Shown piece by piece: positions 28,479 to 49,596 of a stretch of DNA of 64,000 bases (position 1 is the first letter of the stretch; each line of letters starts with the position of its first letter). The stretch is from Ignavibacteriota bacterium (GTDB lineage Bacteria > Bacteroidota > Ignavibacteria > UBA10030), in contig CAVSHO010000001.1 of NCBI GenBank assembly GCA_963727825.1, positions 1-64,000 on the forward strand. The letters are read 5' to 3'. The translations under genes and the position numbers were made by a program. The notes beneath the pieces are model-generated. The model saw only the letters and a program-made list of their open reading frames with translations, searched no databases and had not been told where the DNA came from.

Positions 28479-30797
28479 TTAAATCTCAATTCTAAATAAC
28501 GGCAGGTCCTGATTTTTCAGACATCCAAGCAGCCGTTTTCGCTTTGGCTGGTTAATGTCGAAGTGCGCTTTTAGACGGTCTATGTCATATCCAAACGGTA
28601 GCAGCAGCGTTTCCATTGCCCGCAAAGCAAGCTCGGTGTATTGCTCGATATCGTAGCCGTCTTCGAACGCATAAAGCGCGATGGGCTTGGCTTTTTCCGG
28701 CTTTTTCTTTCCGGATTGATCTATAATAATGAATTCTATCGACTCACCCGCTGAGAGATGCACTCCCATCTCTTCCACCATCTTTGAAACAACTGCACTG
28801 ATGCTGTTGTTGACGTATTCATCAGCCTCGTGCGTGATGTGACGTTTGAGAACAAGCTCCATCGGATTTGCACGTCCGCTCTGGAGAAGAGAAATGTAAC
28901 TTCGGCCTACTTCCAGCAGTTCTGGCACCAACGCGGAAACTTCCTCAACATTTTTTGCAGTCGACATCTTATCCAGCATCGCTTTTTGCATATTCTTGAT
29001 GAACCTAGGTGTGTCGCGGCGTCGTGCCTCGATGCCGCGCATTTTTAAATCGCGGTGTTTGTACCAGCCGACATAATGATTCGCTGTAGTAATCATCGGA
29101 TCTGTTTTGGAAGCCGGGAAAAGAATCCAGTTGTAAATGCCTTCCAGCGAAATGTTGATGCCAACGCGTGCAGAGATTTCGCGGGCGAGTTCTTCGTAAT
29201 CATTTTGTGTCGCGCCAGGTTTTTTTAGCCATACGCAATCTATAATTCCGTGGAGAAGCCGATAGCCGCGGCTCTCGGCAATTTCTTTTGCAGTGAGAAT
29301 GATGTCGCGCGAGAAAGCATTCACCGATTCATGCGCTTCAATGCGCCCGAACCGCGCGTTCTTGTAGCCGAGGTACCCAAAACAGCTCACGAGCATCCAC
29401 TTGAGCGCGCTTTGCCGGCAATCGTACCGTTTGAAAAGCACCTCATCCTTTCCATTGAATTCTTTTTTCTTTTGTTTGTAGTACGCGCGCTTGGCAACGA
29501 CGGCACGTAATGTCTCCGGCACAACTCCTTTTCGTTTTTCACAGATTGTGTAACCAAGCTCTGGTACTGCTTCGTTGTGACAACATCGACAGTTAATTGT
29601 TTCCGGTGAGATATTGTTGTTGACCATAATGCTCGGATACATCGATGCAAAATCGAGTTCAGCAACATCCTCATGGTAACCAAGCGGTGGATTAAAGATA
29701 AGTCCGCCGCGGTCGGCGAGCAGAAGTGTTGCGGCAGATTTGAATCCCTCCGGCTCGCGCTTCTTTGATGGAATAAGAACGTTGTTGCGATATGCCCACG
29801 AAAGCTGCATAGACGACATAGACGTGCCGATGCTCGCACGCCCCTGACGCTGTCCGCACATTTGCGTGAGGCGTGTCATTTCGAATAGGCCGTCAAGATC
29901 AGCCTCTGCAACAGTAAAAGAATTATGCGCATCCACGTGCCAGCGGCCTGCGAGGGTGAACGCGCCATCCTTATGAACAATCTTGCCGTACTGAAAGAAA
30001 CTGGATTCCTTCGTTGTGCCGAACTTCGCGTTTGCATCTCTGTTAAGGTGCAGTGGAATCTTGAATTGCCTGGAAAGAGCAAAAAGTTTTGGCAGAAGAA
30101 TAGCGTCGCCGTAGTCGGTTACTAAAATGTCAGGATCACAGCGGTAGAGATGACAGTTGAGTGCTTCGAGCAATTCTTTTGGAGAATCCTGCTCCAGCGC
30201 ATAAGTGCGGTTATCGTAGCTGATTTCTAATTGCAGAAACTTTTGGTACTTCGGCGGAACAAAATCATTACTATTGCGAATCTGCATTATGGAAAATGGC
30301 GGTAATTCATATTCAAAAGCTTCACGATTGTCTGTCAAATTCCAGTTGAGCAATTCGCCCTGCGCACTGATCTCGTACTCACCAAATCCAAGCGGGAACA
30401 ATTGCGTTTCGTACAGAAACTGTTGTTCGACCGATACATCAGAGTTGAAAAATGTAAAGTGGGGAAAGAATTTTTCAAAGTACCACACTACTTCTCTAAA
30501 TTTCATCGGATCATGGACGAACACTTGTAAAACATTAATGGAATCACCGGAGTAAATCTCCGTGCGTGTTGTTTGTGTGAATGAGACATGAATCGGACAT
30601 CGTGCTCCAAGTGCAACTGCGCGCTTTGTGTCGGATGCACTTAAATGAAGAAAAAAGTATGGCGTGAATTGCCGGGAAAAGTGCAGACGATTGCCATTGC
30701 GATCAATGAACCACAATGTCACTCCACGTTCAAATGGATAGACATCGAACAACCAGGCGGAGATTTTGTAATTCGGATTTCGGATTGTGAATTGCAA
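28479..30797 (-). CDS. Family B DNA polymerase, archaeal PolB2-like
   Basis: Motif A LDFASMYPSIM, NISPET, motif B RQSALKWMLVSCFGYLG, motif C variant HGIIDC, KMRGIEARRRD; no recognisable 3'-5' exonuclease motifs; start codon uncertain. Confidence 0.9.
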   Translation of the reverse strand: MQFTIRNPNYKISAWLFDVYPFERGVTLWFIDRNGNRLHFSRQFTPYFFLHLSASDTKRAVALGARCPIHVSFTQTTRTEIYSGDSINVLQVFVHDPMKFREVVWYFEKFFPHFTFFNSDVSVEQQFLYETQLFPLGFGEYEISAQGELLNWNLTDNREAFEYELPPFSIMQIRNSNDFVPPKYQKFLQLEISYDNRTYALEQDSPKELLEALNCHLYRCDPDILVTDYGDAILLPKLFALSRQFKIPLHLNRDANAKFGTTKESSFFQYGKIVHKDGAFTLAGRWHVDAHNSFTVAEADLDGLFEMTRLTQMCGQRQGRASIGTSMSSMQLSWAYRNNVLIPSKKREPEGFKSAATLLLADRGGLIFNPPLGYHEDVAELDFASMYPSIMVNNNISPETINCRCCHNEAVPELGYTICEKRKGVVPETLRAVVAKRAYYKQKKKEFNGKDEVLFKRYDCRQSALKWMLVSCFGYLGYKNARFGRIEAHESVNAFSRDIILTAKEIAESRGYRLLHGIIDCVWLKKPGATQNDYEELAREISARVGINISLEGIYNWILFPASKTDPMITTANHYVGWYKHRDLKMRGIEARRRDTPRFIKNMQKAMLDKMSTAKNVEEVSALVPELLEVGRSYISLLQSGRANPMELVLKRHITHEADEYVNNSISAVVSKMVEEMGVHLSAGESIEFIIIDQSGKKKPEKAKPIALYAFEDGYDIEQYTELALRAMETLLLPFGYDIDRLKAHFDINQPKRKRLLGCLKNQDLPLFRIEI

Positions 30798-30863
30798 ATT
30801 GCGCGTTATCAGTTTCGAATTTGTTTTTATCAGACTACCTACTTAAAGACTCAACTACTCAAC

Positions 30864-31115
30864 TTATCTTAATTTCTTAGCCTCTTCCTCCAATCTCCGT
30901 ATCGCCTTCTGTTGTTCCACAAGAATCGACATCGTAATACTTTCAAATGGAACAGCGCGCATGGCGTAGAAATTTTCTGCTAAGTGCAATTTTGCTGCAC
31001 GAAATATTTCATCAAACGTTTCCTGATCTTCTTTGCGCAGCCCGCGGCGGAACTTTGACCAGCTTGACAATTCCGCGTCGATCAGATTGGTGAAGGTTGG
31101 TACCGTCCGTCCCAT
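30864..31115 (-). CDS. Small helical PolB2-associated protein (PPB2/arCOG07300-like)
   Basis: MGRTVPTF...W..FRRGLRKEDQ..FD.IF...P.E...MSIL.EQ; GGAG RBS; immediately upstream of polB. Confidence 0.75.
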   Translation of the reverse strand: MGRTVPTFTNLIDAELSSWSKFRRGLRKEDQETFDEIFRAAKLHLAENFYAMRAVPFESITMSILVEQQKAIRRLEEEAKKLR

Positions 31116-31821
31116 AATTTGTTTCTCCTCTGGCTATAAGCTTAACAACTGGTGTTGTCTGCTGTGGTTCTAAAAATAGTTGAAGCTTGCCTTGTTCGTT
31201 GGTATCGAGTTTATACACGCGGTCCACGCCCTTCTTCAGCGTGGCAAATAATCGATTGCGTTCCGGCGGAGCGACAGTTCGTTCTAAGCACACCAGTAAA
31301 AGCGAAGCGCCGGATGCTTTCATTTTTTGAAATGATACCAAAAGTCTCTGAAGAATCTGCTGCACCTCCCGCAAGGAAGCTTGTTCGTCGTAGAATGTGT
31401 CGAGCAGTCCAAAGATCAATGCTGTATTTGAGTGGACGGTTGAAAGAAACGAAGGCAGTTTGTGCGCAATTGCCTGTTCCATCTGGTAGCAGGTGAAACC
31501 GCGCGAGATGAAGATACGATTGAGAAATTTGTTTGGGTCGATTTTCCGCGTGCGGGCAAATCGTGAAAGAGCGTGTACGTCGAACCGGTTACAGCCGTCT
31601 ACAACAGCAATAGAATTTCCGCCAGCCATCGCGTGTGCCGCCATCTGAAGCGAGATATGGAATACAGAGCGGTCGCCGTAGAGCAGGAAAACCTTGCCGG
31701 GCTTTTCTGCAAATGCTTGGATGATGCTGCTTGAACCGGATGCTGTAGCATTGTCATGTATTTCTGATATAGCAGTTGCGCTTGAAGGCTGACGATATTT
31801 GGCATGAAATGATACAGGCAT
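31012..31821 (-). CDS. Inactivated RadA/RecA-fold protein (iRadA-like)
   Basis: RadA-like blocks IAVVDGCNRFD and RIFISRGFTCYQM; the Walker A position (LLYGDRSV) lacks GKT. Confidence 0.75.
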   Translation of the reverse strand: MPVSFHAKYRQPSSATAISEIHDNATASGSSSIIQAFAEKPGKVFLLYGDRSVFHISLQMAAHAMAGGNSIAVVDGCNRFDVHALSRFARTRKIDPNKFLNRIFISRGFTCYQMEQAIAHKLPSFLSTVHSNTALIFGLLDTFYDEQASLREVQQILQRLLVSFQKMKASGASLLLVCLERTVAPPERNRLFATLKKGVDRVYKLDTNEQGKLQLFLEPQQTTPVVKLIARGETNYGTDGTNLHQSDRRGIVKLVKVPPRAAQRRSGNV

Positions 31822-31839
31822 AAGCGTAATCTGATAATA

Positions 31840-32229
31840 TCACCTATCCCCCTCATAGGGGGACAATAGGGGGTTCTGCAATGCGCCATAAATTACATCA
31901 ACTATTCCATCGACATTTGTCGAGATTTCAGAATTATTAAACCTTAACACATGATATCCTTCCGAGCTCAAATATTTATCACGTTGCCGATCTTTTTCTA
32001 AACCCTTCATTGTTGAATGTTGAACTCCATCGATTTCAATAACAAGTTTTTTCTGTCGGCACACAAAGTCAACGATGTATTTTCCAATAGGAACTTGTCG
32101 TCTAAAGTAATGACCTAACTGATTCCTTCGCAATCGTGACCAAAGTTTCTGCTCAGTATCTGTCATATTCCTGCGAAATGATCTCGCCTGGCCGATTGAA
32201 GCATGCCGATATTTAAGCGCATCGTTCAT
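31840..32229 (-). CDS. DUF559 (Vsr-like) endonuclease domain protein
   Basis: AR..RRNMT..E.KLW..LR..QL...FRRQ.PIG.YIVDF...KLVIEIDG.QH...D..RD.YL...G..VLRF.N. Confidence 0.93.
   Translation of the reverse strand: MNDALKYRHASIGQARSFRRNMTDTEQKLWSRLRRNQLGHYFRRQVPIGKYIVDFVCRQKKLVIEIDGVQHSTMKGLEKDRQRDKYLSSEGYHVLRFNNSEISTNVDGIVDVIYGALQNPLLSPYEGDR
31847..31875 (-). repeat. REP/BoxC-like hairpin at the 3' end of DUF559
   Basis: TCCCCCT-CAT-AGGGGGA plus adjacent TAGGGGGTT; minus strand reads AACCCCCTA...hairpin. Confidence 0.65.
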
Positions 32230-32232
32230 AAG

Positions 32233-32268
32233 AACCTCTCCCTAACCCTCTCCTAGTAGGAGAGGGAA
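32233..32268 (+). repeat. REP/BoxC-like hairpin at the 5' side of DUF559
   Basis: AACCTCTCCCTAA-CCCTCTCCT-AGT-AGGAGAGGG. Confidence 0.7.
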
Positions 32269-32291
32269 ATGTTTTTAGCTTAATCTTCTAA

Positions 32292-32322
32292 TGACAATAC
32301 GACATTTTTGTCGTCTTGTCAA
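32292..32322 (-). promoter_or_regulatory. Leftward promoter of the PolB2 cassette, overlapped by an operator palindrome
   Basis: Minus strand TTGACA (32322-32317), 17 bp, TATTGT (32299-32294); TGACAATACGACA-TTTT-TGTCGTCTTGTCA has 13-bp arms with 1 mismatch. Confidence 0.8.
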
Positions 32323-32362
32323 GTGGATTACACAAAGCGCGTAGCGGCAGATGAAAAAGAGC

Positions 32363-32412
32363 TTGACAATACAGGGTAAAATGCGGTATCTTGGTAATGA
32401 CATTTATGTCGT
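32363..32412 (+). promoter_or_regulatory. Rightward repressor promoter with second operator
   Basis: TTGACA 32363-32368, 18 bp, TATCTT 32387-32392; ATGACA-TTTA-TGTCGT 32397-32412; GGAGG RBS follows. Confidence 0.75.
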
Positions 32413-32426
32413 ATACGGAGGATTAA

Positions 32427-33077
32427 ATGAAATCTACAATTGCACAACGCATTCGGGAAGCGCGCTCTTTCAAACAATTAGATCAGGGAACACTTGCTGC
32501 AAAGATTGATATTGCTACACGCACTATTCAGCGGTGGGAAAAAGGCGAGCAAGTTCCCGACAGCAATTACCTTATGCGCATCGCTAAAACAACCGGCGTG
32601 ATGGCTCGTTGGCTGCTCACCGGAGATGGAGAAATGATTCCAACCGAACAGCACAAATCGAAAGTGCTGCCGTTACCGACAAGCCGCTATAAAAAGGTAA
32701 CACTCGTTTCATTACCATTGCTTGCCTCTGTGCCGGCTGGAGCAATGAGTCAGCGGTTTCATTCCGATCAAGCAGAGCGTCACATTACAGTGGATGATGT
32801 TCGGGACCCAAATGCATTCGCGCTTGAAGTAAAAGGAAACAGCATGGCGCCTCGCATCGAAAACGGAGACATCATTGTTGTCAGCCCAACGCATGAAGTA
32901 AAAAGCGGCGACATCTGCGTGGTGCGCGTGGACGATGAAGACACCGTCAAGCTCATTAAAATTGACGAGCAATTTGTGCATCTTATTCCGCTCAATCCCG
33001 AGTACGAACCGATGGTTGTTCGCAAACGCGATGTCAGTTTTATGTGGCGTGTAATCAAGGTGATTAAGAGTGTTTAG
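32427..33077 (+). CDS. XRE/CI-type HTH + S24 autopeptidase repressor (LexA/CI-like)
   Basis: HTH (QGTLAAKIDIATRTIQRWEKG, WLLTGDG), Ala-Gly cleavage site VPAG, catalytic Ser GNSM and Lys TVK. Confidence 0.93.
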   Translation: MKSTIAQRIREARSFKQLDQGTLAAKIDIATRTIQRWEKGEQVPDSNYLMRIAKTTGVMARWLLTGDGEMIPTEQHKSKVLPLPTSRYKKVTLVSLPLLASVPAGAMSQRFHSDQAERHITVDDVRDPNAFALEVKGNSMAPRIENGDIIVVSPTHEVKSGDICVVRVDDEDTVKLIKIDEQFVHLIPLNPEYEPMVVRKRDVSFMWRVIKVIKSV

Positions 33078-37595: not shown

Positions 37596-38513
37596 TTATT
37601 TTCTTAGATACGGATTTTTTGGTAGTTGGATAGTAATAAAGTCGCGTTCTTTCATACCCCTTGTTACCCTTTCATCAGGTTGTTCCTTGAATATGATGCA
37701 GCACAATGAGCCATGGGGAATGATTCCTAATAAACTTATAAAGCTCCTTAACGCCAATTTCATTTTTATTTTCTTGTACAATCTTTGGTTAATCGGAACG
37801 TCATATAGTCCCTCAATTTTCTCATGACTTTTAAAATTATCATACCGTTTAAATGCAATGCAGGGCAGCCCCATTCCCATAGCAATCTTTTCGATCTCAC
37901 GCTCTGAAATTTTAAAGACATAGTTACCAACAGATTCCCATGAAAACCGATTCTTCCAGATTTTGTTAATGAATAAAGGATTGATCTTGTCGCATATATT
38001 TTTAATCCAAATGAGAAGTGACATTTTAGAAAGGATATCGATTGGTTCCGTGACAAGTACCGTAGCAATTTTGCTGGCACGTATCATTTCATATACGCCT
38101 AAGTACGCACGCGGGAAATGATGAAATGCTTCTTTGCAAATGACAAAATCAAATGAATTGTCGCTGTAAGTCAATCTTTCAACATTTTGTTTACTGAATT
38201 CCTTAATGAGTCCATCAGATTTTGCCTCTTTGAGTATAGCGTCAGACAGATCGGAAGCTATAACATTTTGATTTCTCTGCAACAGGTAATTTGCCTCCAA
38301 ACCATTATAGTCTCCAACAGTTAACCATGTTTTGGTCGTATCAAAAAAAGGTGTGAGGAATTCCAGCGGCTCTGAAATCAACTTGTAGGCAGCACAATTC
38401 TGATTCTTTATATGGAATAGCACTTGCTCTTTTTCGTTTGCCATTTTTATAATATTCATTTCTTGAGCCTGATAATTTGAATTGATCTGACTTGTGCTTT
38501 TTCCCTTTTCCAT
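37596..38513 (-). CDS. Class I SAM-dependent methyltransferase
   Basis: TVGD..GLEA, ASDLS, DNSFDFVICKEAFHH; start uncertain (38567/38513/38459). Confidence 0.8.
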   Translation of the reverse strand: MEKGKSTSQINSNYQAQEMNIIKMANEKEQVLFHIKNQNCAAYKLISEPLEFLTPFFDTTKTWLTVGDYNGLEANYLLQRNQNVIASDLSDAILKEAKSDGLIKEFSKQNVERLTYSDNSFDFVICKEAFHHFPRAYLGVYEMIRASKIATVLVTEPIDILSKMSLLIWIKNICDKINPLFINKIWKNRFSWESVGNYVFKISEREIEKIAMGMGLPCIAFKRYDNFKSHEKIEGLYDVPINQRLYKKIKMKLALRSFISLLGIIPHGSLCCIIFKEQPDERVTRGMKERDFITIQLPKNPYLRK

Positions 38514-38595
38514 AGGATCCCTTAGTTGTTGAAACAATATATAATAAAGACAAAGACCACACCACAAGTTAATCGATCAATTACTTAATATCGTC

Positions 38596-39787
38596 TCAAC
38601 TAAGTGATTTCTCAATAATATCTATCACTGCTTGAACAGAGATGGTCTTAATGTCAAGTCGAGAACCATATTGATATAGTTCTACCAATTCTTCAAAGTT
38701 GAGATGTGAGGCTGTAATCGCGGGAGGATATGCATAATAGATCTTATCATATATGTTTTTGGGGTATTCTGTAAATCTTCCGTAATGTTCTCCATTAGAA
38801 ATAACGATGACTGGCTTTTTTGCTGCAACCCCAATATGGCTGACGCTCGTATCATTTGATACAACCAGCCTACATAGTTGAATAGTCTCTACTGTTTCAG
38901 CTAAGGTAAGTTTATTGATGTGATTTGTGATATATGGACGTTGCGATAAAATATATGTATCCTCTTTTGAAGGAATATCCCAACGATCTCCGACAATTAC
39001 ACTTGACATTCCATGTGCAGTATAGAGAAAATCCATTACCTGAATAAAACATTTCAATGGCCATCGTTTCTTTGCAAGAAGAGAACCGGGGCAAATGACA
39101 GCATAACGAGCAGCCTCGGTTTTATTGATCAGCGATGGAAGTGTTGGTGTATATTGATATGAATCAGTCGTCGTTATTTTTTCAATGAACTCTTTGTTCT
39201 TATTAAATTCAAATATTGTGGATGAGGGGATATCAATTAATTCAGTATAGCAATGATTGAAGATGTGCTTTTCCCACTGCTTCTACATGTACGCAATCTC
39301 CTACACAACCAATTTTTTCCTTTGCACCAGAAATTCGAACGATTGAATCGTCACATATAGGATTACGGGAGTATGTTGGATTTAAAACAACTTCGATTCC
39401 CTTTGTCCTTATTTCCCGAAATATCTTCCACCGATAGAAGGCATGGCGTTTCATTTTGTTAGTGTTAATCCAAATGAATTCTGATACTATTTTAGAGTCA
39501 TATGCCAAAGCGAGCTCTTTATAAGCCTGATTACCGCAAAGAGTATATTTGTAGTCCTTAAATCGTGGACTATTCTTTAGCGCCTCTAAAAAATTCCGAA
39601 ACAATATATAATCGCCAATACCATCTATGCGAATAATTAACAGTGTCTTTGGGTTAGGTATCGGCTTCTTCGTCAGGAGTAAAGAATCTAGGATAAAAAA
39701 ACGCACTAATCGTTGCAGGTCAATAATTCGTCGAACAATATTTCTTATGCAGTTAAAAAAAAGGGTCTGCACTTTTTTTTTATCCAT
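38596..39787 (-). CDS. Glycosyltransferase family 9, +1 frameshift near 39290
   Basis: IRIDGIGDYILF (ORF 39242-39787); ICPG...KRWP and VSNDTSVSHI in the downstream frame. Confidence 0.82.
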
Positions 39788-40568
39788 TTATTCGTCTCTG
39801 CTTTGCAATATGAATATCGGATTCTGTTTTACTTCCTAAGTGTAAAGACGTAATCGCCGGAATACCAAACAGAGAGAGTTTCAAGAGAAAGTTATAAACT
39901 GTATTATTGAGTCGTTTGTCGGTCAATATATGGAAGCTTTTCTTGTTCGAATAAAAATTTAACTTGTATTTCTTTGCTATTGCACGAAGAGAATCTAATG
40001 AATAAAAGGCAATATGTTGTCCATGTGTAAATCCATAATAATCCCATGTGTCTGGATTTGGCGTACCAGAAGGAAATGGTACGGTTGAGAATATAAGAGA
40101 ACGGGAAACAGAAAGCATCCGTTCAATCTCTTGCAATGGATCGGCTAAATGCTCGAAACATTCAAAAGCCGTTACCAGCTCGATAGTATGATTTTTCGAT
40201 TTATCGTATTCGAATCCTCGAGCGAAAATATTTTCTGCGTAAGGATCGTTCCAAAAAAAATCAAAACCATAATCGCGCATAAGCCGTACAAACAATCCAG
40301 ATCCGCCTCCCCAATCGACAAATTGTCCGTTTTTCTCAAAAAGAAAATAAATCAATGCACTTGTTCGTTTCGCCGACAAAATATTTCTTCGGACAATCCC
40401 GGTATCTTCGGCATTAATAGCTTTTTGATATGCTTCTGAGAGCCAATAAGGTTCTTCGGTCTGAATGAATCCACAGGTGTGACATTGGTAGTATTCAACT
40501 TCGTACTTCAGAAGAATCTGTCGCTTAAATATTTTTGAGGAAATATTTCCGCAAATTTTACAATTCAA
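39780..40568 (-). CDS. Class I SAM methyltransferase with N-terminal Zn motif
   Basis: CKIC...CHTCG, DWGGGSG, FECFEH, GQHIAFY. Confidence 0.85.
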   Translation of the reverse strand: MNCKICGNISSKIFKRQILLKYEVEYYQCHTCGFIQTEEPYWLSEAYQKAINAEDTGIVRRNILSAKRTSALIYFLFEKNGQFVDWGGGSGLFVRLMRDYGFDFFWNDPYAENIFARGFEYDKSKNHTIELVTAFECFEHLADPLQEIERMLSVSRSLIFSTVPFPSGTPNPDTWDYYGFTHGQHIAFYSLDSLRAIAKKYKLNFYSNKKSFHILTDKRLNNTVYNFLLKLSLFGIPAITSLHLGSKTESDIHIAKQRRING

Positions 40569-40632
40569 TTTGCAATCCTTATTGAAAGCACTATAATAAT
40601 ATCTATCAAAACATATGATTGAGCATTAGTTT

Positions 40633-41550
40633 CTATCGATGCATGTTTCGTCGAATCAATTGCCAACCTTTGATAAGCTTAGGTGGATTCAGATATTTTT
40701 TTAGTGTGTATTCATCTGCGACAGAATCGGGAACGACGAAAAGTGGATGCTGAATTTGGTCTATTATTCCCGTTGGACGATTGGCAAATGAACTGAATGA
40801 GTCGATCGTATGAGTAGCGTCACCATCAAAGCCGATGTTAGAAATCAAATTTATATTTGGAAGAACCACTAGTCCATTGTTTATTAGCAATGTATATTGC
40901 CATTGCAAATCCCATGTATCTTTCATTTTTCTGTATACTAAATTAAGATTTCTTTTCCAGTATTTTTGCGTATATAAGGTTGGAAAAAGTAAATGCAGTA
41001 TGTTTTGCTCGAGAAACTGTGGATAAGTGGACATATGAACGTCATATTTCTCCCACGCTTTTTTCCATGTTGCCCAACCCCATATATGGCTGATTCTCGA
41101 AAAATAATAGGAACCATCACCGCGCACCATGCCATCCTGAAGATTTATACCTCCTATATGCATGACCCGGTTATCGTTTCTATAATATTCAAGCAAAGTC
41201 CCACAGAAATGAAAAAAGGACATGTCCGGAAGACAATCATCTTCAAGAATAATTCCTTCGGTTACATGATGGAAGAACCAATCAATGCCGGAACTGACAC
41301 CTATTCGGCATCCTAAGTTCTTTTCAGCAAAGTTTGTCTGGAGTTCGCATTTCCAATCTACTCTTTCAACAATCTTTCGTGCCTCAGCACATAGCTGATC
41401 TTCACCTTTTTTATGTTCACGTGGCCCATCTGCCGATATGAAGAGCTGACGTGGTTGAATATCTCGAATCCTTTGAAACACTTTTTCGGTTGTATCTGGA
41501 CGATTAAAGATGAGGAAAAGAATTGGCGTGTCGAATGTTTTATTTGCCAT
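40633..41550 (-). CDS. Nucleotide-diphospho-sugar transferase (GT-A)
   Basis: IFNRPD, ADGPR, NLGC, IILEDD, WGWATW, DTWDLQW. Confidence 0.88.
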   Translation of the reverse strand: MANKTFDTPILFLIFNRPDTTEKVFQRIRDIQPRQLFISADGPREHKKGEDQLCAEARKIVERVDWKCELQTNFAEKNLGCRIGVSSGIDWFFHHVTEGIILEDDCLPDMSFFHFCGTLLEYYRNDNRVMHIGGINLQDGMVRGDGSYYFSRISHIWGWATWKKAWEKYDVHMSTYPQFLEQNILHLLFPTLYTQKYWKRNLNLVYRKMKDTWDLQWQYTLLINNGLVVLPNINLISNIGFDGDATHTIDSFSSFANRPTGIIDQIQHPLFVVPDSVADEYTLKKYLNPPKLIKGWQLIRRNMHR

Positions 41551-41554
41551 AATA

Positions 41555-42415
41555 TTACCGATTTCTAAGGACGACGATAAGGAAAAAATATTTTATGATT
41601 TTCCATAAACAACTTGACCCAAAAATCAATATATGAAAAATTTTCCAAGGCCAGGGACAGGCAAGCAAAATAAAATTAGAATAGTAAACGGGATGAAGAG
41701 TATATTTTTTTGAAAATAAATGCTTTAGAAAGCCGCTGTACGTTTTCTCATTCTTAAAATTGCTTATTCCGGTTGCAGATTCATCGGCGTAAAGCTTAAG
41801 ATGTTCATCGGCTACTAATGCATATCCCTTATTATGCGCACGGACAGTGAATTCATAGTCGGAAGCATAGTGAGGCAATAGATGTGGGTAAAAACCTCCA
41901 ATAATTAAGAAATCCGAGACGTATAAAAATAATCCGCGGGTGGACGCACAATTAATTTTATTCGGATTCGTCTCGAGCGAAAATCTTAATCTTTTCCAAT
42001 CGGCATGAACTCCACCGTCAAAAAGTCGTTGGCTCACTTCTCCATAAGCATTTGAAATCAATAGAATATTCTGCCGCTCGTTTAAAATAGATACTGCTGT
42101 TTGAAGATAATTTGCGTCAAAGACAGCATCATCATTTATTATCAATACCATAGATGACGCTGGAACGTTTTTTGACTTTATCCAGAGATATCCTTGATGT
42201 AATGAGCCACCCCACCACCAATCTCCGTGTCCTTGAATAATAGTTAAAGATGAAATGCGCTCTTTGACCATTTCCGCCGTTCCATCGGTTGAACCATCAT
42301 CGATCAACAGCAAATGATAATCCTGGAAGGTTTGCTGCTGAAGACATGTAATGATTCGTTGAGTGATCTGTTTCCGATTATGAACCGGAAGTAAAATGTA
42401 AAGTTTTGGAATCAC
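41555..42415 (-). CDS. Glycosyltransferase family 2
   Basis: LPVHNR, DDGSTDGT, GDWWWGG, INDD. Confidence 0.88.
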   Translation of the reverse strand: MIPKLYILLPVHNRKQITQRIITCLQQQTFQDYHLLLIDDGSTDGTAEMVKERISSLTIIQGHGDWWWGGSLHQGYLWIKSKNVPASSMVLIINDDAVFDANYLQTAVSILNERQNILLISNAYGEVSQRLFDGGVHADWKRLRFSLETNPNKINCASTRGLFLYVSDFLIIGGFYPHLLPHYASDYEFTVRAHNKGYALVADEHLKLYADESATGISNFKNEKTYSGFLKHLFSKKYTLHPVYYSNFILLACPWPWKIFHILIFGSSCLWKIIKYFFLIVVLRNR

Positions 42416-42506
42416 TTCTTCCTCAATACATTAGCCTTATGCAAGAATCTTCTATCGCACAGTTCTTCAATAGTCATTGATTGTAAATTACTCATAGAAC
42501 GGGCTG

Positions 42507-43673
42507 TTATTTGACAATGCTCTTATATACTTGTTTCGTTTCCTTTGCAGTTCGCTCCCAGGAAAAGTAATTCAATCGTTCCTTTCCTTTTTTACATAAT
42601 TCTTTCCTGAGTGATTTGTCTAATAATACCTGATTCACAGCACCGGCAATTGATGTTTTATCTTTAGGATCAAAGCACAAGCAAGCGTTTCCTGCTATTT
42701 CTGGCAATGAACTTGTATTGCTTATGAGAACCGGGCAATTACAGGCGAATGCTTCCAGAATAGGAATTCCGAAACCTTCATAGAGAGACGGAAAAACAAA
42801 TGCTAAAGCGTATGTGTAGAGGGAAATTAATATTGCGTCATTCACAGGAAAGTAATAAAGTTTATGCTCTACACCCCATTTATGGAGCAACAATTTCTCT
42901 GCTTGAGTAAAATCTTTCCCACCTGCACATACCACGGAAAGAGTTTTATCCTGTGATAAGAGCGGAACGATTGATTCAATAAAGAAAAGAAAGTTTTTGT
43001 ATAACGCTCTGTTGCCGACATATAGCAAGTAATGCTCTGGAAGATTTAACTTCTGAATTACATTGTTTTGTTTAACTATTTCAGCATTTAATGAATTTGC
43101 TAAATATACTACCTCGATTTTATCGCTCGGCAATTTATACAATTCCATCAAATCCTTTTTAGTGTTTTCCGAAATAGCTATAATTTTCGCAGCCTCTTTT
43201 GCAAGAAGTGATTTCCAGTTCAGAAATTGCTGGGACGATGGATAAAATTCTGGAAAAAGCTCATAAATCATATCGAACACCGTTAAGATAAAGGGCTTAT
43301 CGTGAAGATAGTCCAAGAAGTACGGATCAAAGTAAGTGGGATGAAAAATATCATATTCTCCGCGTGCAATGATTTCTTTAGAATATCTTTTGTTTTCGTT
43401 TTCCCGATAATTGTTAATCTGTTTAACGACAACATTTCTTGCTATATGCACAGGAAATCCGAGTCCTGCTTTATAAGAAATTCTTTTCAAATATGGATGA
43501 ACATCAATATTCCATTTTGCATTTTTCAAATATTCATTATCAGTATATTTAAGCGAAAGATTGAACATGATCTCGGGATCTTTAGAATAAGCATTCATAA
43601 GTTCAAAGAAAATACGAGATACTCCGCCAAAAGCAAAAGAGGAGAAGGCCTGATGATCATAGAGAATTTTCAT
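42507..43673 (-). CDS. Glycosyltransferase family 4
   Basis: GGVSR, HPTY, YVGNR..YKN, FPSLYEGFGIPILEA. Confidence 0.92.
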   Translation of the reverse strand: MKILYDHQAFSSFAFGGVSRIFFELMNAYSKDPEIMFNLSLKYTDNEYLKNAKWNIDVHPYLKRISYKAGLGFPVHIARNVVVKQINNYRENENKRYSKEIIARGEYDIFHPTYFDPYFLDYLHDKPFILTVFDMIYELFPEFYPSSQQFLNWKSLLAKEAAKIIAISENTKKDLMELYKLPSDKIEVVYLANSLNAEIVKQNNVIQKLNLPEHYLLYVGNRALYKNFLFFIESIVPLLSQDKTLSVVCAGGKDFTQAEKLLLHKWGVEHKLYYFPVNDAILISLYTYALAFVFPSLYEGFGIPILEAFACNCPVLISNTSSLPEIAGNACLCFDPKDKTSIAGAVNQVLLDKSLRKELCKKGKERLNYFSWERTAKETKQVYKSIVK

Positions 43674-44446
43674 GGTTTCGTTGATTTCTGCATAATTAGA
43701 AAATCACCTATCATTTTACTCTTCATTCTCCGGCGCACATAATGATGCAATCCTAGTTTCTGAATTCGAAATATCCAACGGATCACCGAATCCGGAAAAT
43801 TCTTCTTAGTGAAAAGATGCAAGGATCCATGCGTATAATAATTTAAGCCATTCTCGTTTGCTATGTATTGAAAACTTTCTTTTGAATAAAACGAAACATG
43901 CTGCCCATGTTCAAATTGATAGTACCACCAATCTGAGGTTGGCACAGAAGAGGGCAGTAAAAAGGTTGAAAACAAAATATTGCTTGAAATGGATAACATC
44001 TTTCTAATTTCAATTAAAGGATCCGTAAAATGCTCGAAACTTTCAAAGCTGGTCAGCAATTCGCAGTTAGACAAAGAGTCAGTATATTCGAATCCTCGTG
44101 CAAGTAAATTCTGTGTCATTGGGTCATGCCAGAGGAAATTAAATCCAATATCTCTCATTAATCGTGTGAAGACACCAAAGCCGCCGGCATAATCAAGGAA
44201 CTTTCCGTTTTTGTCAAACAAAAAGAAAATAAGAAGTGATGTTGTTTTGCTGAAATAAATATTGCGCGAAAGAAGCCCGGTATCTTCTACATTTATTGGA
44301 TCATCGTACGCTTCGTTAAGCCAATAAGGATCTTCCGTCTGAAGAAAGCCACATTGCGGACAATGGTAATAGCATACTTGATATTTACCAAGCACCATGG
44401 CTTTGAACGCAAGTTCCATTTTTTGTTGGCAAATTTTACAGGTCAT
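43670..44446 (-). CDS. Class I SAM methyltransferase, paralog of 39780-40568
   Basis: CKIC...CPQCGFLQTEDPYWL, DYAGGFG, FESFEH, GQHVSFY. Confidence 0.85.
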   Translation of the reverse strand: MTCKICQQKMELAFKAMVLGKYQVCYYHCPQCGFLQTEDPYWLNEAYDDPINVEDTGLLSRNIYFSKTTSLLIFFLFDKNGKFLDYAGGFGVFTRLMRDIGFNFLWHDPMTQNLLARGFEYTDSLSNCELLTSFESFEHFTDPLIEIRKMLSISSNILFSTFLLPSSVPTSDWWYYQFEHGQHVSFYSKESFQYIANENGLNYYTHGSLHLFTKKNFPDSVIRWIFRIQKLGLHHYVRRRMKSKMIGDFLIMQKSTKP

Positions 44447-45852
44447 TGTTTAGCCCAAATTCCCGTTGCTGTGTTATTAATGAGCTTGATGTATTGAATC
44501 GGCGACCAGATAGATCCGACAAAAAGGCAAATAGAAGTTGCGGCAACCACTCCAGCACTTCCCCAATGCAGATATTTTACAAGGACGTACGCAAGCGGGA
44601 TGTTTACAACACCAATAATGATTGAGCTGTAGAGCTGCAATCGAATTCTCCCCGTTCCATTTAAAAAGCTGACGAAGATACTGTTCCAATTGTTAATTGT
44701 CACATAAAATACCATTGCGAGAGAAAGAGTAAATGGGACCGATACCTTATTTCCAACCCAAAGTTGATAAATAGGTTGTGATACCGTTAGCATAAATATG
44801 GTTGTAATAGTTGCCAGAATCCAAATGCCAACTAATTTTCGTGTCGAACTTTTGATCCAGCCAAATTCCTTTTTATGAAACGCTTCCGTGAATGCTGACC
44901 AGAAGGGAGCTATTGCAATGCCGAATAACATAGAAATAACACCAAAGTATTTAAAGGCGATATTATATGCTGTTACCTCGGCTGGACCTAAAAAATTTGC
45001 GATTAAAACATTGCTAGTAGAGAAAATTATCAAAGCGGTAATTTGTATGATAAAGAATTGGACACCGATATTCGCAAGCGTCTTTGCATATTTCAATTGG
45101 ATGAGATGAACTGAAGGTGCAACATATCGGTACCTTTTTGAGTAAAACCACACCGATGCAACTGCCGGAACGAGTACTACGATAGAGCTAAAAACTATAC
45201 CAAAAGTTAAAAGTGAACTTGTAGTCAGCTTTGTTAAACCATAGACTGCGACTAGTGTAACGATATTGATAGATACTTCTATCATACCAGCGCGGCCCGG
45301 TTCTTGATCCGCGGTAAGAACTGTGCCGATCAAACTGAAAACAAAACGCAAGCAAAAAGAGACGATGACAATCAGAACGAGAAGATCTAAATCATGTAAA
45401 GGAATAGAATATGCGCGAAGAATCTTTTGCCAATTCAGGAAATGGTTTATTCCACAAAAAATGACAAGCCCACAACTGACAATAAGTAAAATAAGAAAAT
45501 ACGTTGTGCTTACATATATTCTGGCAAGATTTTTATTGCCAACAGCTAATGCTTCAGCAAATCTATTGCGCAGTCCATTGCCCAAACCAACATCAAAGTA
45601 TACTATCCATGCGACAATAGAGCTCAGGGTAAGCCAAACACCATATTCTGTAGGATTCAAATAGTTAAGAGTAATAGGAACAATAAGAAGTCCGGAAAGA
45701 ATACTGATTACTTTCATAATTCCAAGAAGAACGACGTTCTTTTTCACTTTGATTGATCGTTCATCTCCTGAATGTAGAAAGGAAATACCTTGTCGCCGAA
45801 GTTTGCGAACAAAAGCAAGATTATCGGCGAGGATAGGTGAAGTAAATTTCAT
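44443..45852 (-). CDS. Wzx-like oligosaccharide flippase (MOP family)
   Basis: About 12 TM; YGVWLTLSS, FDVGLGNGLRN, PFWSAFT. Confidence 0.88.
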   Translation of the reverse strand: MKFTSPILADNLAFVRKLRRQGISFLHSGDERSIKVKKNVVLLGIMKVISILSGLLIVPITLNYLNPTEYGVWLTLSSIVAWIVYFDVGLGNGLRNRFAEALAVGNKNLARIYVSTTYFLILLIVSCGLVIFCGINHFLNWQKILRAYSIPLHDLDLLVLIVIVSFCLRFVFSLIGTVLTADQEPGRAGMIEVSINIVTLVAVYGLTKLTTSSLLTFGIVFSSIVVLVPAVASVWFYSKRYRYVAPSVHLIQLKYAKTLANIGVQFFIIQITALIIFSTSNVLIANFLGPAEVTAYNIAFKYFGVISMLFGIAIAPFWSAFTEAFHKKEFGWIKSSTRKLVGIWILATITTIFMLTVSQPIYQLWVGNKVSVPFTLSLAMVFYVTINNWNSIFVSFLNGTGRIRLQLYSSIIIGVVNIPLAYVLVKYLHWGSAGVVAATSICLFVGSIWSPIQYIKLINNTATGIWAKQ

Positions 45853-45922
45853 TAGATAGAAGTTAAAATTAGTATTGAAAAGATCTTGGCCTTAAAAACT
45901 AATACAACAATAATCTCTACAA

Positions 45923-45950
45923 TATTCAACTTTTAATTCAAAGTTGAATA
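45923..45950. repeat. 11-bp inverted repeat (terminator or operator) between yfhO-like gene and wzx
   Basis: TATTCAACTTT-TAATTC-AAAGTTGAATA. Confidence 0.5.
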
Positions 45951-46029
45951 AGTTACACTGATCAATTATCTAGATTATTATGGAGTCAATTGTACAATCA
46001 AAGTTTTATTGGTTCGGATTATTGTAAAA

Positions 46030-48582: not shown

Positions 48583-48710
48583 AAATATTTTTGATTCCTA
48601 ACGAATATTGAGAATAATATAACCGATAATCAGCGTTTTTTGATTTAGTGTAAAAGATATAATAAAGAGAAAAGGAATGACATTCAATAAATTCGTCGTG
48701 CTATACAATG

Positions 48711-49520: not shown

Positions 49521-49596
49521 TCAAGTCAAAATTAAAAAGTAAAAATGAAAAAGTATATATGATTAAAATGGAACCATTGTAGAATAAACTAAATAC

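What the first reader, a model, noticed from the sequence alone, without database searches (positions are those of the whole stretch)
28479..33077. Archaeal-type PolB2-PPB2-iRadA cassette wired to a dedicated autocleavable repressor: candidate bacterial mutasome
Seen: a co-directional trio of a Walker-A-less RadA-fold gene, an 83-aa helical protein and an exonuclease-less PolB with variant motif C. It is transcribed divergently from an XRE-S24 repressor with intact Ala-Gly, Ser and Lys, and both promoters carry the same palindrome. There are no phage or transposase genes nearby. Established: PolB2 with a small partner and an inactivated RadA is a conserved archaeal operon, and Sulfolobales Dpo2 is damage-inducible and mutagenic. 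S24 repressors self-cleave on RecA*. Bacterial imuA-imuB-dnaE2 cassettes also pair an inactive RecA-like protein with an error-prone polymerase. Inference: a self-contained SOS-like translesion/mutagenesis module that uses a B-family polymerase in place of DnaE2 or PolV, controlled by its own CI-type switch instead of archaeal Orc1-2 or canonical LexA. I know of no experimental description of this arrangement in bacteria, but cannot check the literature here.
Basis: partly seen in the sequence, partly recalled or inferred. Interest (0 to 1): 0.9.

Follow-up and report, generated by a model that had tools for sequence, protein, structure and literature searches.

The report
Bacterial PolB2 mutasome operon with LexA-like repressor
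This is a bacterial copy of the archaeal damage-tolerance DNA polymerase complex (PolB2, PPB2 and an inactive RadA), apparently switched on by a self-cleaving repressor after DNA damage; the arrangement is real and well conserved but has already been described by computer analysis in other bacteria.

Summary
On the minus strand lie iRadA (31012-31821), PPB2 (30864-31115) and an exonuclease-dead family-B polymerase with an IID motif C (28479-30797). They are divergent from an XRE/CI-type HTH plus S24 repressor (32427-33077). Two copies of ACGACA-N4-TGTCGT sit on the two promoters.

All defining PolB2-mutasome features from Timinskas et al. 2025 that I could test are met. This is not new in kind. 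Makarova 2014 and Timinskas 2025 already describe bacterial iRadA-PPB2-PolB2 operons next to lexA.

"Dedicated" is only half right. The repressor is the genome's only S24 protein, and only this locus carries operators here. However, its orthologues are single-copy across the order, and by my hand tally they lie within 4 kb of PolB2 in only 20 of 97 genomes. They occur without PolB2 in 7-8 genomes. In relatives the same operator also precedes DUF72/SRAP, radical-SAM and DUF5131 genes. It is therefore the lineage's non-canonical LexA.

PolB2 occurs in 129 of 151 genomes of the order.

I found nothing in print on three points: the CI-type regulator in this lineage, its operator, and the apparently minimal regulon. 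There is no expression or biochemical evidence.

The parts
28479..30797 (-). PolB2: family-B DNA polymerase, proofreading-dead, motif C 'IID'
   Evidence: PF00136 2.7e-36 and no exonuclease family. NF004416 scores 1.3e-119 against 2.6e-18 for Pol II models. Motifs come from the PDB alignment. D382, K466, I518 and D520 are invariant in 29 of 29 orthologues.
29238..29246 (-). Motif C residues I518-I519-D520 (the first catalytic Asp is replaced)
   Evidence: Of the 149 aligned rows with residues here (window plus best representatives), 0 have Asp at the first position and 149 keep the last Asp.
29709..29744 (-). FKSA (352-355) Rad51-oligomerisation-like motif and D362-R363 'D(K/R)' motif of PolB2
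   Evidence: F352, K353, D362 and R363 are invariant. Across 151 rows the second motif reads DK in 72 and DR in 70. The modelled iRadA contacts fall on residues 345-359.
28494..28511 (-). C-terminal QDLPLF (763-768), candidate beta-clamp-binding motif
   Evidence: Q[ED]LPLF, QLSLF and QADLF-like endings recur in the orthologues. Reading them as a clamp motif is my inference from the QLxLF consensus quoted in PMC11791011.
30864..31115 (-). PPB2, 83-aa helical subunit with an N-terminal MGRT arm
   Evidence: M1, G2 and R3 are invariant and T4 is kept in at least 90% of 20 orthologues. The model has helices 8-18, 20-25, 28-44 and 57-82. All 30 ESM Atlas hits are DUF8156, mostly archaeal (a lead only).
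31012..31821 (-). iRadA: Rad51/RadA-fold protein without Walker A; its last 35 codons overlap PPB2 out of frame
   Evidence: Mean pLDDT is 81, and the 10-residue blocks covering residues 41-210 average 93 or more. The top Foldseek hits are all Rad51, RadA or Dmc1. The tail 226-254 has pLDDT below 50.
31840..32229 (-). DUF559 (Vsr-like endonuclease fold) gene, first gene of the transcription unit, variably present in relatives
   Evidence: PF04480 1.8e-37. It is present at different positions, or absent, in relatives. G000 has 8 PF04480 matches.
32246..32266 (.). Perfect 10-bp hairpin CCCTCTCCTA-G-TAGGAGAGGG next to the DUF559 start
   Evidence: It is shared with L032 and L033, which also carry the DUF559 insert.
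32294..32322 (-). Operon promoter-like site TTGACA-17-TATTGT
   Evidence: It matches 10 of 12 consensus positions, one of the two best of 11 sites in the 5 kb scanned. The -35 block is invariant in the genus.
32299..32314 (.). Operator O1, ACGACATTTTTGTCGT, in the spacer and -10 of the operon promoter
   Evidence: Orthologous sites with at most 1 mismatch lie upstream of the PolB2 operon in 31 of 40 loci.
32363..32392 (+). Repressor promoter-like site TTGACA-18-TATCTT
   Evidence: It matches 10 of 12 consensus positions and is conserved in the genus.
32397..32412 (.). Operator O2, ATGACATTTATGTCGT, just downstream of the repressor -10
32427..33077 (+). CI/XRE-type HTH plus S24 self-cleaving repressor (non-canonical LexA); A104-G105, S139, K175
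   Evidence: It is the only PF00717 match in the genome.

Best explanation
This is a chromosomal, vertically inherited PolB2 mutasome operon (DUF559-iRadA-PPB2-PolB2) of an Ignavibacteriales-type bacterium. It is controlled by the lineage's non-canonical LexA, a protein with a CI/XRE-type HTH and an S24 domain.

Inferred mechanism:
1. The repressor binds the two ACGACA-N4-TGTCGT operators. O1 lies in the spacer and -10 of the operon promoter. O2 lies just after the -10 of the repressor's own promoter. Both promoters are thereby shut.
2. DNA damage produces RecA-ssDNA filaments. These trigger self-cleavage at Ala104-Gly105 by Ser139 and Lys175, and both promoters open.
3. PolB2 assembles with iRadA, through the FKSA motif at 352-355, and with a PPB2 trimer, through its MGRT arm. 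The complex is brought to the beta clamp by the C-terminal QDLPLF.
4. Having no proofreading, it extends distorted or mismatched primer ends past lesions. This gives damage tolerance at the cost of mutations. The single DinB-like Y-family polymerase is the likely inserter.

Shown here: the genes, motifs, folds, operators, their conservation and their distribution. Inferred: repressor binding, RecA-dependent cleavage, induction, complex formation and polymerase activity.
For: Identity of the cassette:
- Gene order is iRadA-PPB2-PolB2 in 39 of 40 loci from the order.
- PolB2 has IID at motif C, D362-R363 and FKSA, invariant in 29 of 29 orthologues. The best 150 representatives of 1.84 billion share these features: 0 of 149 have Asp at the first motif C position, and the D(K/R) site reads DK in 72 and DR in 70.
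- The family includes proteins named Bathyarchaeia.
- PPB2 has an invariant MGRT start and is helical.
- iRadA has a Rad51/RadA fold and no P-loop.
- The complex model gives ipSAE 0.77 in three runs (0.77, 0.77, 0.76) against a best control of 0.16. That mark was reached by 58 of 80 solved complexes and 2 of 110 mismatched pairs. The runs agree in at least 94% of contacts and the partner pLDDT is at least 80. Contacts fall on PolB2 345-359. The model supports binding but does not show it, and my own alignments were used.

Regulation:
- Operators overlap both 10-of-12 promoter matches and form phylogenetic footprints.
- The operator lies upstream of the PolB2 operon in 31 of 40 loci, including loci where the repressor is unlinked. 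It is absent at 1 mismatch or fewer in the 7 loci L047-L053, whose genomes showed only a partial S24-domain match to the query or no match at all (G118, the source of L052). Two of these proteins were tested and are canonical LexA.
- The S24 catalytic residues are kept in 14 of 14 sequences. recA is present.

Function by homology:
- S. islandicus Dpo2, with the same IID (PMC11791011 section 3.2), is damage-inducible and is responsible for targeted mutagenesis (PMC7390963 abstract). It is an exonuclease-free extender polymerase (PMC8764526 abstract).
Against: - There are no expression data. No RNA run could be listed, so induction is untested.
- Repressor binding to the operators and RecA-dependent cleavage rest on homology and position only.
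- Six of 13 orthologues have Gly-Gly instead of Ala-Gly at the cleavage site.
- Motif B also departs from the consensus (N to V, Y to F). No bacterial PolB2 has been assayed, so activity is extrapolated from an archaeal enzyme of about 35-40% or lower identity.
- I built no rooted tree with PolB1, PolB3 and Pol II outgroups. Clade membership rests on shared motifs, operon partners and score gaps.
- In this genome the operator was found at no repair gene outside the locus. recA and dinB upstream regions have at least 4-5 mismatches of 12. The label 'SOS regulator' therefore rests on relatives.
- G104 has PolB2 with its own operator but no iRadA or PPB2 in the 11 kb fetched.
Confidence: 0.75

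Rival explanations
1. One reading: the repressor is a private, cassette-dedicated CI-type switch. Together with the trio it forms a self-contained module separate from any genome-wide SOS network.
For: - In G000 only this intergenic region carries operators with at most 1 mismatch outside genes.
- Genes beside the seven weaker intergenic sites are not recognisable repair genes.
- recA, dinB and the DUF72/helicase locus lack operators.
- The repressor is adjacent and divergent in the window and in 7 of 7 other genus members fetched.
Against: - It is the only S24 protein of the genome and there is no canonical LexA.
- By my hand tally, 105 of 151 genomes of the order hold one full-length orthologue. 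Of the 97 that also have PolB2, only 20 have the two within 4 kb. Six more have them 7-554 kb apart on one contig, and 71 have them on different contigs.
- Eight genomes have the repressor but no PolB2 match (7 are at least 96% complete).
- In relatives the same operator precedes DUF72+SRAP, radical-SAM and DUF5131 genes.
Confidence: 0.15
2. The polymerase is catalytically dead, as was long predicted for PolB2. On this view the conserved complex has a non-synthetic role, for example sensing or remodelling stalled forks or regulating replication, and is not a translesion synthesis enzyme.
For: - The first Asp of motif C is lost and motif B is altered.
- Makarova 2014 (passages) regarded these proteins as probably inactivated and suggested roles at stalled forks or origins.
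Against: - S. islandicus Dpo2 with the same IID has robust polymerase activity (PMC8764526 abstract).
- The motif A Asp, the motif B Lys and the remaining motif C Asp are invariant in 29 of 29 orthologues, and the motif C Asp in 149 of 149 rows. That fits a working active site.
- A clamp-type C-terminal motif is conserved.
Confidence: 0.08
3. The locus is a remnant of a prophage or other mobile element that carries a CI repressor and a phage-type PolB.
For: - The repressor's HTH matches Phage_CI_repr (7.1e-08).
- GC is slightly raised, 0.474 at 28-30 kb against 0.40-0.44 around it.
- A multi-copy DUF559 gene is inserted in the operon.
Against: - No phage or transposase family was found in the flanks.
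- PolB2 is in 129 of 151 genomes and 64 of 80 genera of the order, at 47-92% identity for full-length matches. In the phylum sample it is essentially confined to that order, 28 of 29 hits. This indicates old vertical inheritance.
- Its partners are the archaeal-type PPB2 and iRadA, not phage replication genes.
Confidence: 0.02

Closest known systems
Bacterial PolB2 operons with neighbouring lexA (Makarova et al. 2014, e.g. Leptospirillum ferriphilum LFML04_0990-0993; Timinskas, Timinskas and Venclovas 2025)
   Same: The same three genes occur in the only order reported for bacteria, iRadA-PPB2-PolB2. An S24 SOS-type repressor lies beside them. The same signature motifs are present (xxD motif C, D(K/R), MGRT arm, and a clamp motif on PolB2 or iRadA).
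   Different: The repressor here has a CI/XRE-type HTH and not the LexA winged helix. It is divergent, not co-operonic. A DUF559 gene heads the operon. I could not see the papers' supplementary tables, so I cannot tell whether this lineage is already among their operons.
Archaeal PolB2 (Dpo2)-PPB2(arCOG07300)-iRadA operon, Sulfolobus islandicus
   Same: The subunit set is homologous. Motif C reads IID and the exonuclease is inactive. By inference the complex is a damage-inducible extender translesion polymerase.
   Different: The host is bacterial. The clamp motif is of the beta-clamp type, not the PCNA type. Control is by an S24 autocleaving repressor and not by Orc1-2.
Non-canonical LexA of Bacteroidetes (Sanchez-Osuna et al. 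2021)
   Same: A CI-type N-terminal HTH is fused to an S24 domain. It stands in for LexA in a genome that lacks LexA, is autoregulated, and recognises a palindromic operator.
   Different: The operator here is ACGACA-N4-TGTCGT, not GGA-N5-TCC or CTAA-N5-TTAG. Full-length matches outside the order reach only about 27-35% identity, so orthology is unsettled. The regulon is very small and, in this genome, shows no recA or uvr targets. That paper mentions neither polB nor Ignavibacteria.
Pol V (UmuD'2C-RecA) and ImuA-ImuB-DnaE2 mutasomes
   Same: Each is a damage-induced, repressor-controlled, multi-subunit error-prone polymerase that includes a RecA-family protein and uses the clamp.
   Different: The catalytic subunit here is family B, not Y or C. 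The RecA-like partner is an inactive RadA. The small subunit is a helical trimer, not UmuD'. There is no homology of parts, so it works like them without being a member.
E. coli Pol II (PolB)
   Same: It is a family-B, SOS-inducible polymerase that binds the clamp.
   Different: Pol II is a single subunit with an active exonuclease and DTD at motif C. NCBIfam Pol II models score only 65.7 bits against 400.6 bits for the archaeal type-B model.

Membership tests
PolB2 (catalytic subunit of the PolB2 mutasome) | Family-B polymerase domain with intact motif A Asp and motif B Lys | tested here: met
   PF00136 2.7e-36. DFASMYPS and K466 align to the Pyrococcus PolB motifs and are invariant in 29 of 29 orthologues.
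PolB2 (catalytic subunit of the PolB2 mutasome) | First Asp of the motif C DxD replaced (e.g. IID in S. islandicus) | tested here: met
   HGIID at 516-520. None of 149 aligned family rows has Asp at the first position.
PolB2 (catalytic subunit of the PolB2 mutasome) | Proofreading exonuclease active site lost | tested here: met
   No exonuclease Pfam family at E 0.01 or better. The Exo II Asp aligns to Leu. Exo I could not be aligned with confidence.
PolB2 (catalytic subunit of the PolB2 mutasome) | Conserved D(K/R) motif preceded by a Rad51-oligomerisation-like motif that binds iRadA | tested here: met
   D362-R363 and F352-K-S-A355 are invariant or nearly so. Across 151 rows the motif reads DK in 72 and DR in 70. 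The modelled iRadA contacts lie at 345-359 (a model only).
PolB2 (catalytic subunit of the PolB2 mutasome) | Falls in the PolB2 clade in a tree rooted with PolB3 | not tested
   I obtained no named PolB1, PolB3 or Pol II sequences. Proxies only: the 150th-best family representative still scores 380 bits, against 155 bits or less for canonical archaeal PolB in the PDB. Relatives of one representative are named Bathyarchaeia.
PolB2 (catalytic subunit of the PolB2 mutasome) | Damage-inducible expression and mutagenic or extender translesion activity | not testable with these tools
   No RNA run was listed and there is no biochemistry.
PPB2 (arCOG07300 / DUF8156) | Helical protein of about 80-90 aa encoded between iRadA and PolB2, with a conserved N-terminal MGRT arm | tested here: met
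   It starts MGRTVPTF. M1, G2 and R3 are invariant in 20 of 20 orthologues. The model has four helices and a free arm at 1-7. The local Pfam copy gave no hit, while the ESM Atlas points to PF26485.
PPB2 (arCOG07300 / DUF8156) | Homotrimer | not tested
   Three copies were included, but only iRadA was scored. All three copies touch iRadA at residues 54-57.
iRadA | Rad51/RadA ATPase-core fold without the N-terminal helical domain | tested here: met
   The Foldseek top hits are Dmc1, RadA and Rad51 (E 1e-10, TM 0.5-0.7). Residues 1-25 have no secondary structure and low pLDDT, and no helical domain is present.
iRadA | ATP-binding residues (Walker A) lost | tested here: met
   The sequence LLYGDRSVFHISL has no GK[ST], and the orthologues likewise. 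The sequence match to RadA is only E 1.2e-3.
Canonical LexA | N-terminal LexA_DNA_bind winged-helix domain | tested here: not met
   The N-terminus matches HTH_19, Phage_CI_repr and HTH_3. TIGR00498 covers only residues 95-215, at 67 bits against a cut-off of 111. There is no PF01726 match anywhere in G000.
Canonical LexA | S24 domain with cleavage site and Ser/Lys dyad | tested here: met
   A104-G105, S139 and K175 align to E. coli LexA. Ser and Lys are kept in 14 of 14 sequences. The cleavage site is AG in 8 (the window and 7 of 13 orthologues) and GG in 6.
Non-canonical LexA (functional class of Sanchez-Osuna et al. 2021) | CI-type HTH plus S24 repressor that replaces LexA and controls damage-response genes through its own palindromic motif | tested here: inconclusive
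   The architecture is met, it is the sole S24 protein, and there are operators at its own gene and at the PolB2 operon. In relatives the operator also lies at SRAP, DUF72, radical-SAM and DUF5131 genes. Binding, cleavage and induction are untested. Orthology with the Bacteroidetes family is unresolved.
ImuA-ImuB-DnaE2 / Pol V mutasomes | Y-family (UmuC/ImuB) or DnaE2 catalytic or scaffold subunit | tested here: not met
   The locus encodes a family-B polymerase. The only PF00817 gene of the genome lies elsewhere (C9:118702) and has no operator. The relation is a functional analogy only.

The most novel reading that the evidence does not exclude
In this order of Ignavibacteria-type bacteria the canonical LexA, still present beside PolB2 in one family of the order, was replaced by a CI-type S24 repressor. 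The conserved core target of that repressor is the archaeal-derived PolB2 mutasome. In this genus the whole 'SOS response' has shrunk to one autoregulated repressor plus one mutasome operon, with recA and excision repair outside its control. A DUF559 nuclease gene has repeatedly been captured into the same damage-inducible transcription unit.
Probability: 0.4. Interest if true: 0.6.

Novelty: new member of a known kind. Interest (0 to 1): 0.4.

Why it matters
No bacterial PolB2 mutasome has been studied at the bench. Its existence and its link to lexA are known only from comparative genomics and AlphaFold models.

This locus gives a compact and fully specified test system. It has two defined operators, two sigma-70-like promoters, a repressor with identifiable cleavage and catalytic residues, and a three-subunit polymerase with mapped interface motifs (the MGRT arm, FKSA and QDLPLF).

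The order-wide survey adds three points:
- The cassette is an old, vertically kept core feature of one bacterial order.
- It stays under S24-repressor control even when the repressor family is swapped between canonical LexA and the CI type.
- The regulon of this CI-type repressor is unusually small.

These points bear on how SOS networks are rewired and on how an archaeal translesion machine was fitted to the bacterial clamp and damage signal.

Tried and rejected
- looked for the operator with the wrong spacing (N6 instead of N4) and found nothing. This was my error, corrected.
- A strict pattern search of the genome found a second perfect site at C7:171866. It lies inside a 339-aa ORF with no Pfam family, has a G in the spacer, and was set aside as probably not an operator.
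- I looked for operators upstream of recA, dinB and the DUF72/helicase locus of G000 and found none. uvrA, uvrB, ruvAB and ssb were not examined one by one. They are covered only by the genome-wide scan: 102 sites with at most 2 mismatches, of which 9 lie outside long ORFs.
- tblastn of G000 with relatives' SRAP, radical-SAM, DUF5131 and TcmP-like proteins gave no hit at 1e-5. I did not run a family-level search for these.
- The look-up of sequencing runs (kind rna) listed no RNA holder.
- A rooted PolB tree was not built, because no named PolB1, PolB3 or Pol II sequences could be obtained.
- A prophage or mobile-island reading was considered and rejected on distribution and flanks.
- NF004416 was checked for whether it marks PolB2 specifically. 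It rings in 5 control genomes, none over the cut-off, so it says only 'archaeal-type PolB'.
- Supplementary files of PMC11791011 (operon lists, neighbourhood table) are closed. They may already list this lineage or count CI-type S24 proteins as lexA.

Full report
**What is there.** The minus strand of 28479-32229 carries four close-packed genes.
- DUF559, 31840-32229 (PF04480 1.8e-37).
- A 269-aa protein, 31012-31821.
- An 83-aa protein, 30864-31115.
- A 772-aa family-B polymerase, 28479-30797 (PF00136 2.7e-36).

Across a 197-bp gap, on the plus strand, lies a 216-aa protein (32427-33077). It has an N-terminal HTH (HTH_19 1.2e-08, Phage_CI_repr 7.1e-08) and a C-terminal Peptidase_S24 domain (5e-26). 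The flanks are the his operon on one side. On the other side are DUF3795, aldo/keto reductase and OmdA genes. No phage or transposase family was found.

**The polymerase.** NCBIfam places it with archaeal type-B polymerases (NF004416, 1.3e-119, 400.6 bits, below that model's cut-off of 516). It is far from Pol II models (best 2.6e-18, 65.7 bits).

The best solved relatives are Pyrococcus and Thermococcus PolB (1.5e-44). E. coli Pol II is not among the 60 listed. In that alignment:
- Motif A is intact (DFASMYPS).
- The motif B Lys is kept.
- Motif C YIDTD reads HGIID.
- The Exo II Asp aligns to Leu.

In 29 orthologues from the order, D382, K466, I518, D520, F352, K353, D362 and R363 are invariant.

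An exhaustive HMMER search of 1.84 billion representatives found 792 clusters at E 1e-30 or better. I aligned the window with the best 150.
- 0 of 149 rows with residues have Asp at the first motif C position, and 149 of 149 keep the last Asp.
- The D(K/R) site reads DK in 72, DR in 70, DQ in 7 and DM in 1, with 1 gapped.
- The commonest forms of the preceding motif are FKTA (27) and FKSA (22).

These are the features that Timinskas et al. 2025 give for PolB2. In sections 3.1-3.3, which I read, they report IID at 401-403 and DK at 253-254 in S. islandicus, preceded by a Rad51-oligomerisation-like motif. Relatives of one representative (P0172) are named Candidatus Bathyarchaeia, so the family spans archaea. 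I did not build a rooted tree.

**The partners.** The 83-aa protein starts MGRTVPTF. M1, G2 and R3 are invariant and T4 nearly so in 20 orthologues. MGRT is the motif that the 2025 paper identifies as the key N-terminal arm of PPB2. Its model is helical with a free arm. The ESM Atlas points to DUF8156, mostly archaeal (a lead only).

The 269-aa protein has no Pfam hit and only a faint RadA match (E 1.2e-3). Its AlphaFold model has mean pLDDT 81, and the 10-residue blocks covering residues 41-210 average 93 or more. It matches Dmc1, RadA and Rad51 cores (Foldseek E 1e-10, prob 1.00). Where the P-loop should be it reads GDRSVFHIS.

I modelled a complex of PolB2 1-550, iRadA 36-225 and three PPB2 copies.
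- ipSAE was 0.77 in three runs (0.77, 0.77, 0.76), against a best control of 0.16.
- The mark was reached by 58 of 80 solved complexes and 2 of 110 mismatched pairs.
- The runs agree in at least 94% of contacts, and the partner pLDDT is at least 80.
- My own alignments were used, so those counts hold only roughly.

iRadA sits on PolB2 residues 345-359, that is on FKSA, as the paper describes. This supports binding but does not show it.

PolB2 ends in QDLPLF. Orthologues end in Q[ED]LPLF, QLSLF, QADLF and similar. I read this as the beta-clamp motif that the paper finds on either PolB2 or iRadA.

**The repressor and its operators.** Ala104-Gly105, Ser139 and Lys175 align with LexA A84-G85, S119 and K156. 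Ser and Lys are kept in 14 of 14 sequences. The cleavage site is AG or GG.

The intergenic region holds ACGACATTTTTGTCGT (32299-32314) and ATGACATTTATGTCGT (32397-32412). The two best sigma-70-like matches in the 5 kb scanned (10 of 12 each) are these:
- TTGACA-17-TATTGT on the minus strand, with O1 in its spacer and -10.
- TTGACA-18-TATCTT on the plus strand, with O2 just downstream.

In six genus members the operators and the promoter hexamers are invariant blocks within otherwise variable DNA.

**Is the repressor dedicated?** In this genome it is the only S24 protein and no LexA DNA-binding domain exists.

A scan for the 12 fixed operator bases gave 2 perfect sites, 5 with one mismatch and 95 with two. 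A reversed-pattern control gave 0, 12 and 229. Only 9 of the 102 sites lie outside long ORFs. Of those, only the two at this locus have at most 1 mismatch. Genes beside the others are not recognisable repair genes. recA, the single Y-family polymerase and a DUF72/helicase locus have no operator. So here the regulon appears to be this locus alone.

Across the order the picture differs.
- PolB2 is present in 129 of 151 genomes and 64 of 80 genera.
- A full-length orthologue of the repressor (50-89% identity) is present once in 105 genomes. This and the next three counts are my hand tally.
- Of the 97 genomes with both genes, 20 have them within 4 kb.
- Six have them 7-554 kb apart on one contig, and 71 have them on different contigs.
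- Eight genomes have the repressor but no PolB2 match.

The operator (at most 1 mismatch) nevertheless lies upstream of the PolB2 operon in 31 of 40 loci fetched, including unlinked ones.

In 32 genomes of the family there are 0-6 sites per genome against 0-2 for the control. The additional sites that I fetched lie next to the following:
- DUF72 with or without SRAP, and an SF1-helicase-like gene
- a radical-SAM gene
- DUF5131 with a partner gene
- an IS1-type transposase
- the repressor itself

In one family of the order (f7) the orthologue is missing. Instead a canonical LexA (LexA_DNA_bind plus S24, 2 of 2 tested) lies 1-6 kb from PolB2, and the operator is absent there.

The repressor is thus best seen as the lineage's LexA substitute, of the kind Sanchez-Osuna et al. 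2021 named non-canonical LexA in Bacteroidetes (abstract and passages seen). Its operator differs from theirs. That paper mentions neither polB nor Ignavibacteria. Outside the order, similarity falls to 39% or less, mostly over the S24 domain only.

**Origin.** Names of close homologues point to Ignavibacteriales/Ignavibacteria. In a sample of 301 genomes of the phylum, PolB2 was found in 29. Of these, 28 are in this order and one is in another order of the same class. Together with identities of 47-92% for full-length matches across the order, this indicates one old acquisition and vertical descent, not a recent island.

**Comparison with print.** Makarova et al. 2014 (passages) state that PolB2, arCOG07300 and inactivated RadA are also linked in several bacteria. 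They add that in some bacteria lexA is in the same predicted operon, citing Leptospirillum ferriphilum. Timinskas et al. 2025 make four relevant points:
- They infer a single archaea-to-bacteria transfer.
- They report iRadA-PPB2-PolB2 as the only bacterial gene order.
- They find lexA, SRAP and DUF72 enriched in the neighbourhood.
- They model the heteropentamer and call it a mutasome.

The archaeal enzyme is damage-inducible, mutagenic and an extender (PMC7390963 and PMC8764526, abstracts). The finding is therefore a further member of a described kind.

I found no bench study of a bacterial PolB2 (searches; one search listed 15 of 279 papers). I found nothing on LexA-type regulation in Ignavibacteria (3 papers, none on this by title). 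The supplements that might list this lineage were closed.

**Verdict.** It is wrong on 'dedicated' as a general property and on novelty. Points I did not find in print are the CI-type regulator for a PolB2 operon, its operator, the small regulon, the swap between two repressor families within one order, and the recurrent DUF559 insertions. All functional steps remain inferences.

Noticed in passing
window 31840-32229; L032, L033, L035, L037; L093 = G128:C44: A DUF559 (Vsr-like) gene sits inside this damage-regulated unit at three different places in different species. It is upstream of iRadA in the window, L032 and L033. It is upstream of the repressor in L035 and L037. It is between iRadA and PPB2 in G128. 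It is absent in L034, L036 and L038. G000 has 8 PF04480 matches, some decayed. Either a mobile gene repeatedly lands here, or it is a recurrent accessory of the operon.
   Followed up: partly
window 31012-31115: The iRadA ORF runs 104 nt into the PPB2 ORF in another frame. The PPB2 ATG starts at the second base of an iRadA codon. The same overlap, ending at the same stop, is seen in many genera. The overlapping iRadA tail is modelled as disordered. It may be only a by-product of the conserved PPB2 N-terminus. It may also reflect translational coupling or a route to the iRadA-PPB2 fusions reported in PMC11791011.
   Followed up: partly
window 32246-32266; L035 and L037 upstream of the repressor: G+C-rich perfect hairpins (CCCTCTCCTA-G-TAGGAGAGGG here, and CCCCTCCTC...GAGGAGGGG-like ones in L035 and L037) lie beside the DUF559 genes. 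They may mark the ends of the inserted unit.
   Followed up: no
G000:C7:171866-171881, outside the window; G043:C4:520414: A perfect match to the 12 fixed operator bases (spacer TGAA) lies inside a 339-aa ORF with no Pfam family. The identical 16-mer is present in another genome of the genus. It is probably conserved as coding sequence, but a real internal site is not excluded.
   Followed up: partly
L047-L052 (family f7 of the order); L049:323-982, L050:7068-7721: One family of the same order keeps a canonical LexA (LexA_DNA_bind plus S24) 1-6 kb from PolB2 and lacks the CI-type orthologue and its operator. This is a within-order swap of SOS repressor type around the same target operon.
   Followed up: partly
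L093 (G128), L094 (G157), L045 (G104): The operon is sometimes split. In G128 and G157, repressor, iRadA, (DUF559) and PPB2 are co-directional at one place. In G128 and G104, PolB2 lies elsewhere behind its own TTGACA/operator/TATCCT-type promoter. The PolB2 of G157 was not located.
   Followed up: partly
proteins P0125, P0157, P0167, P0172, P0179, P0180, P0189, P0193: Many PolB2-family representatives are 1200-1300 aa long and match the query in two stretches that break at residue 473. They carry intein/LAGLIDADG families (PF14528, PF14890). This indicates an intein inserted at motif B.
   Followed up: no
L072 = G043:C3:208348-208394: In a genome of the same genus a pair of operators 31 bp apart lies between a 180-aa ORF of no family and an IS1-type transposase gene. 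This may be a transposase under the damage repressor.
   Followed up: no
window 38001-50000: GC drops to 0.36-0.38, against 0.39-0.47 elsewhere in the window. I did not examine this further.
   Followed up: no
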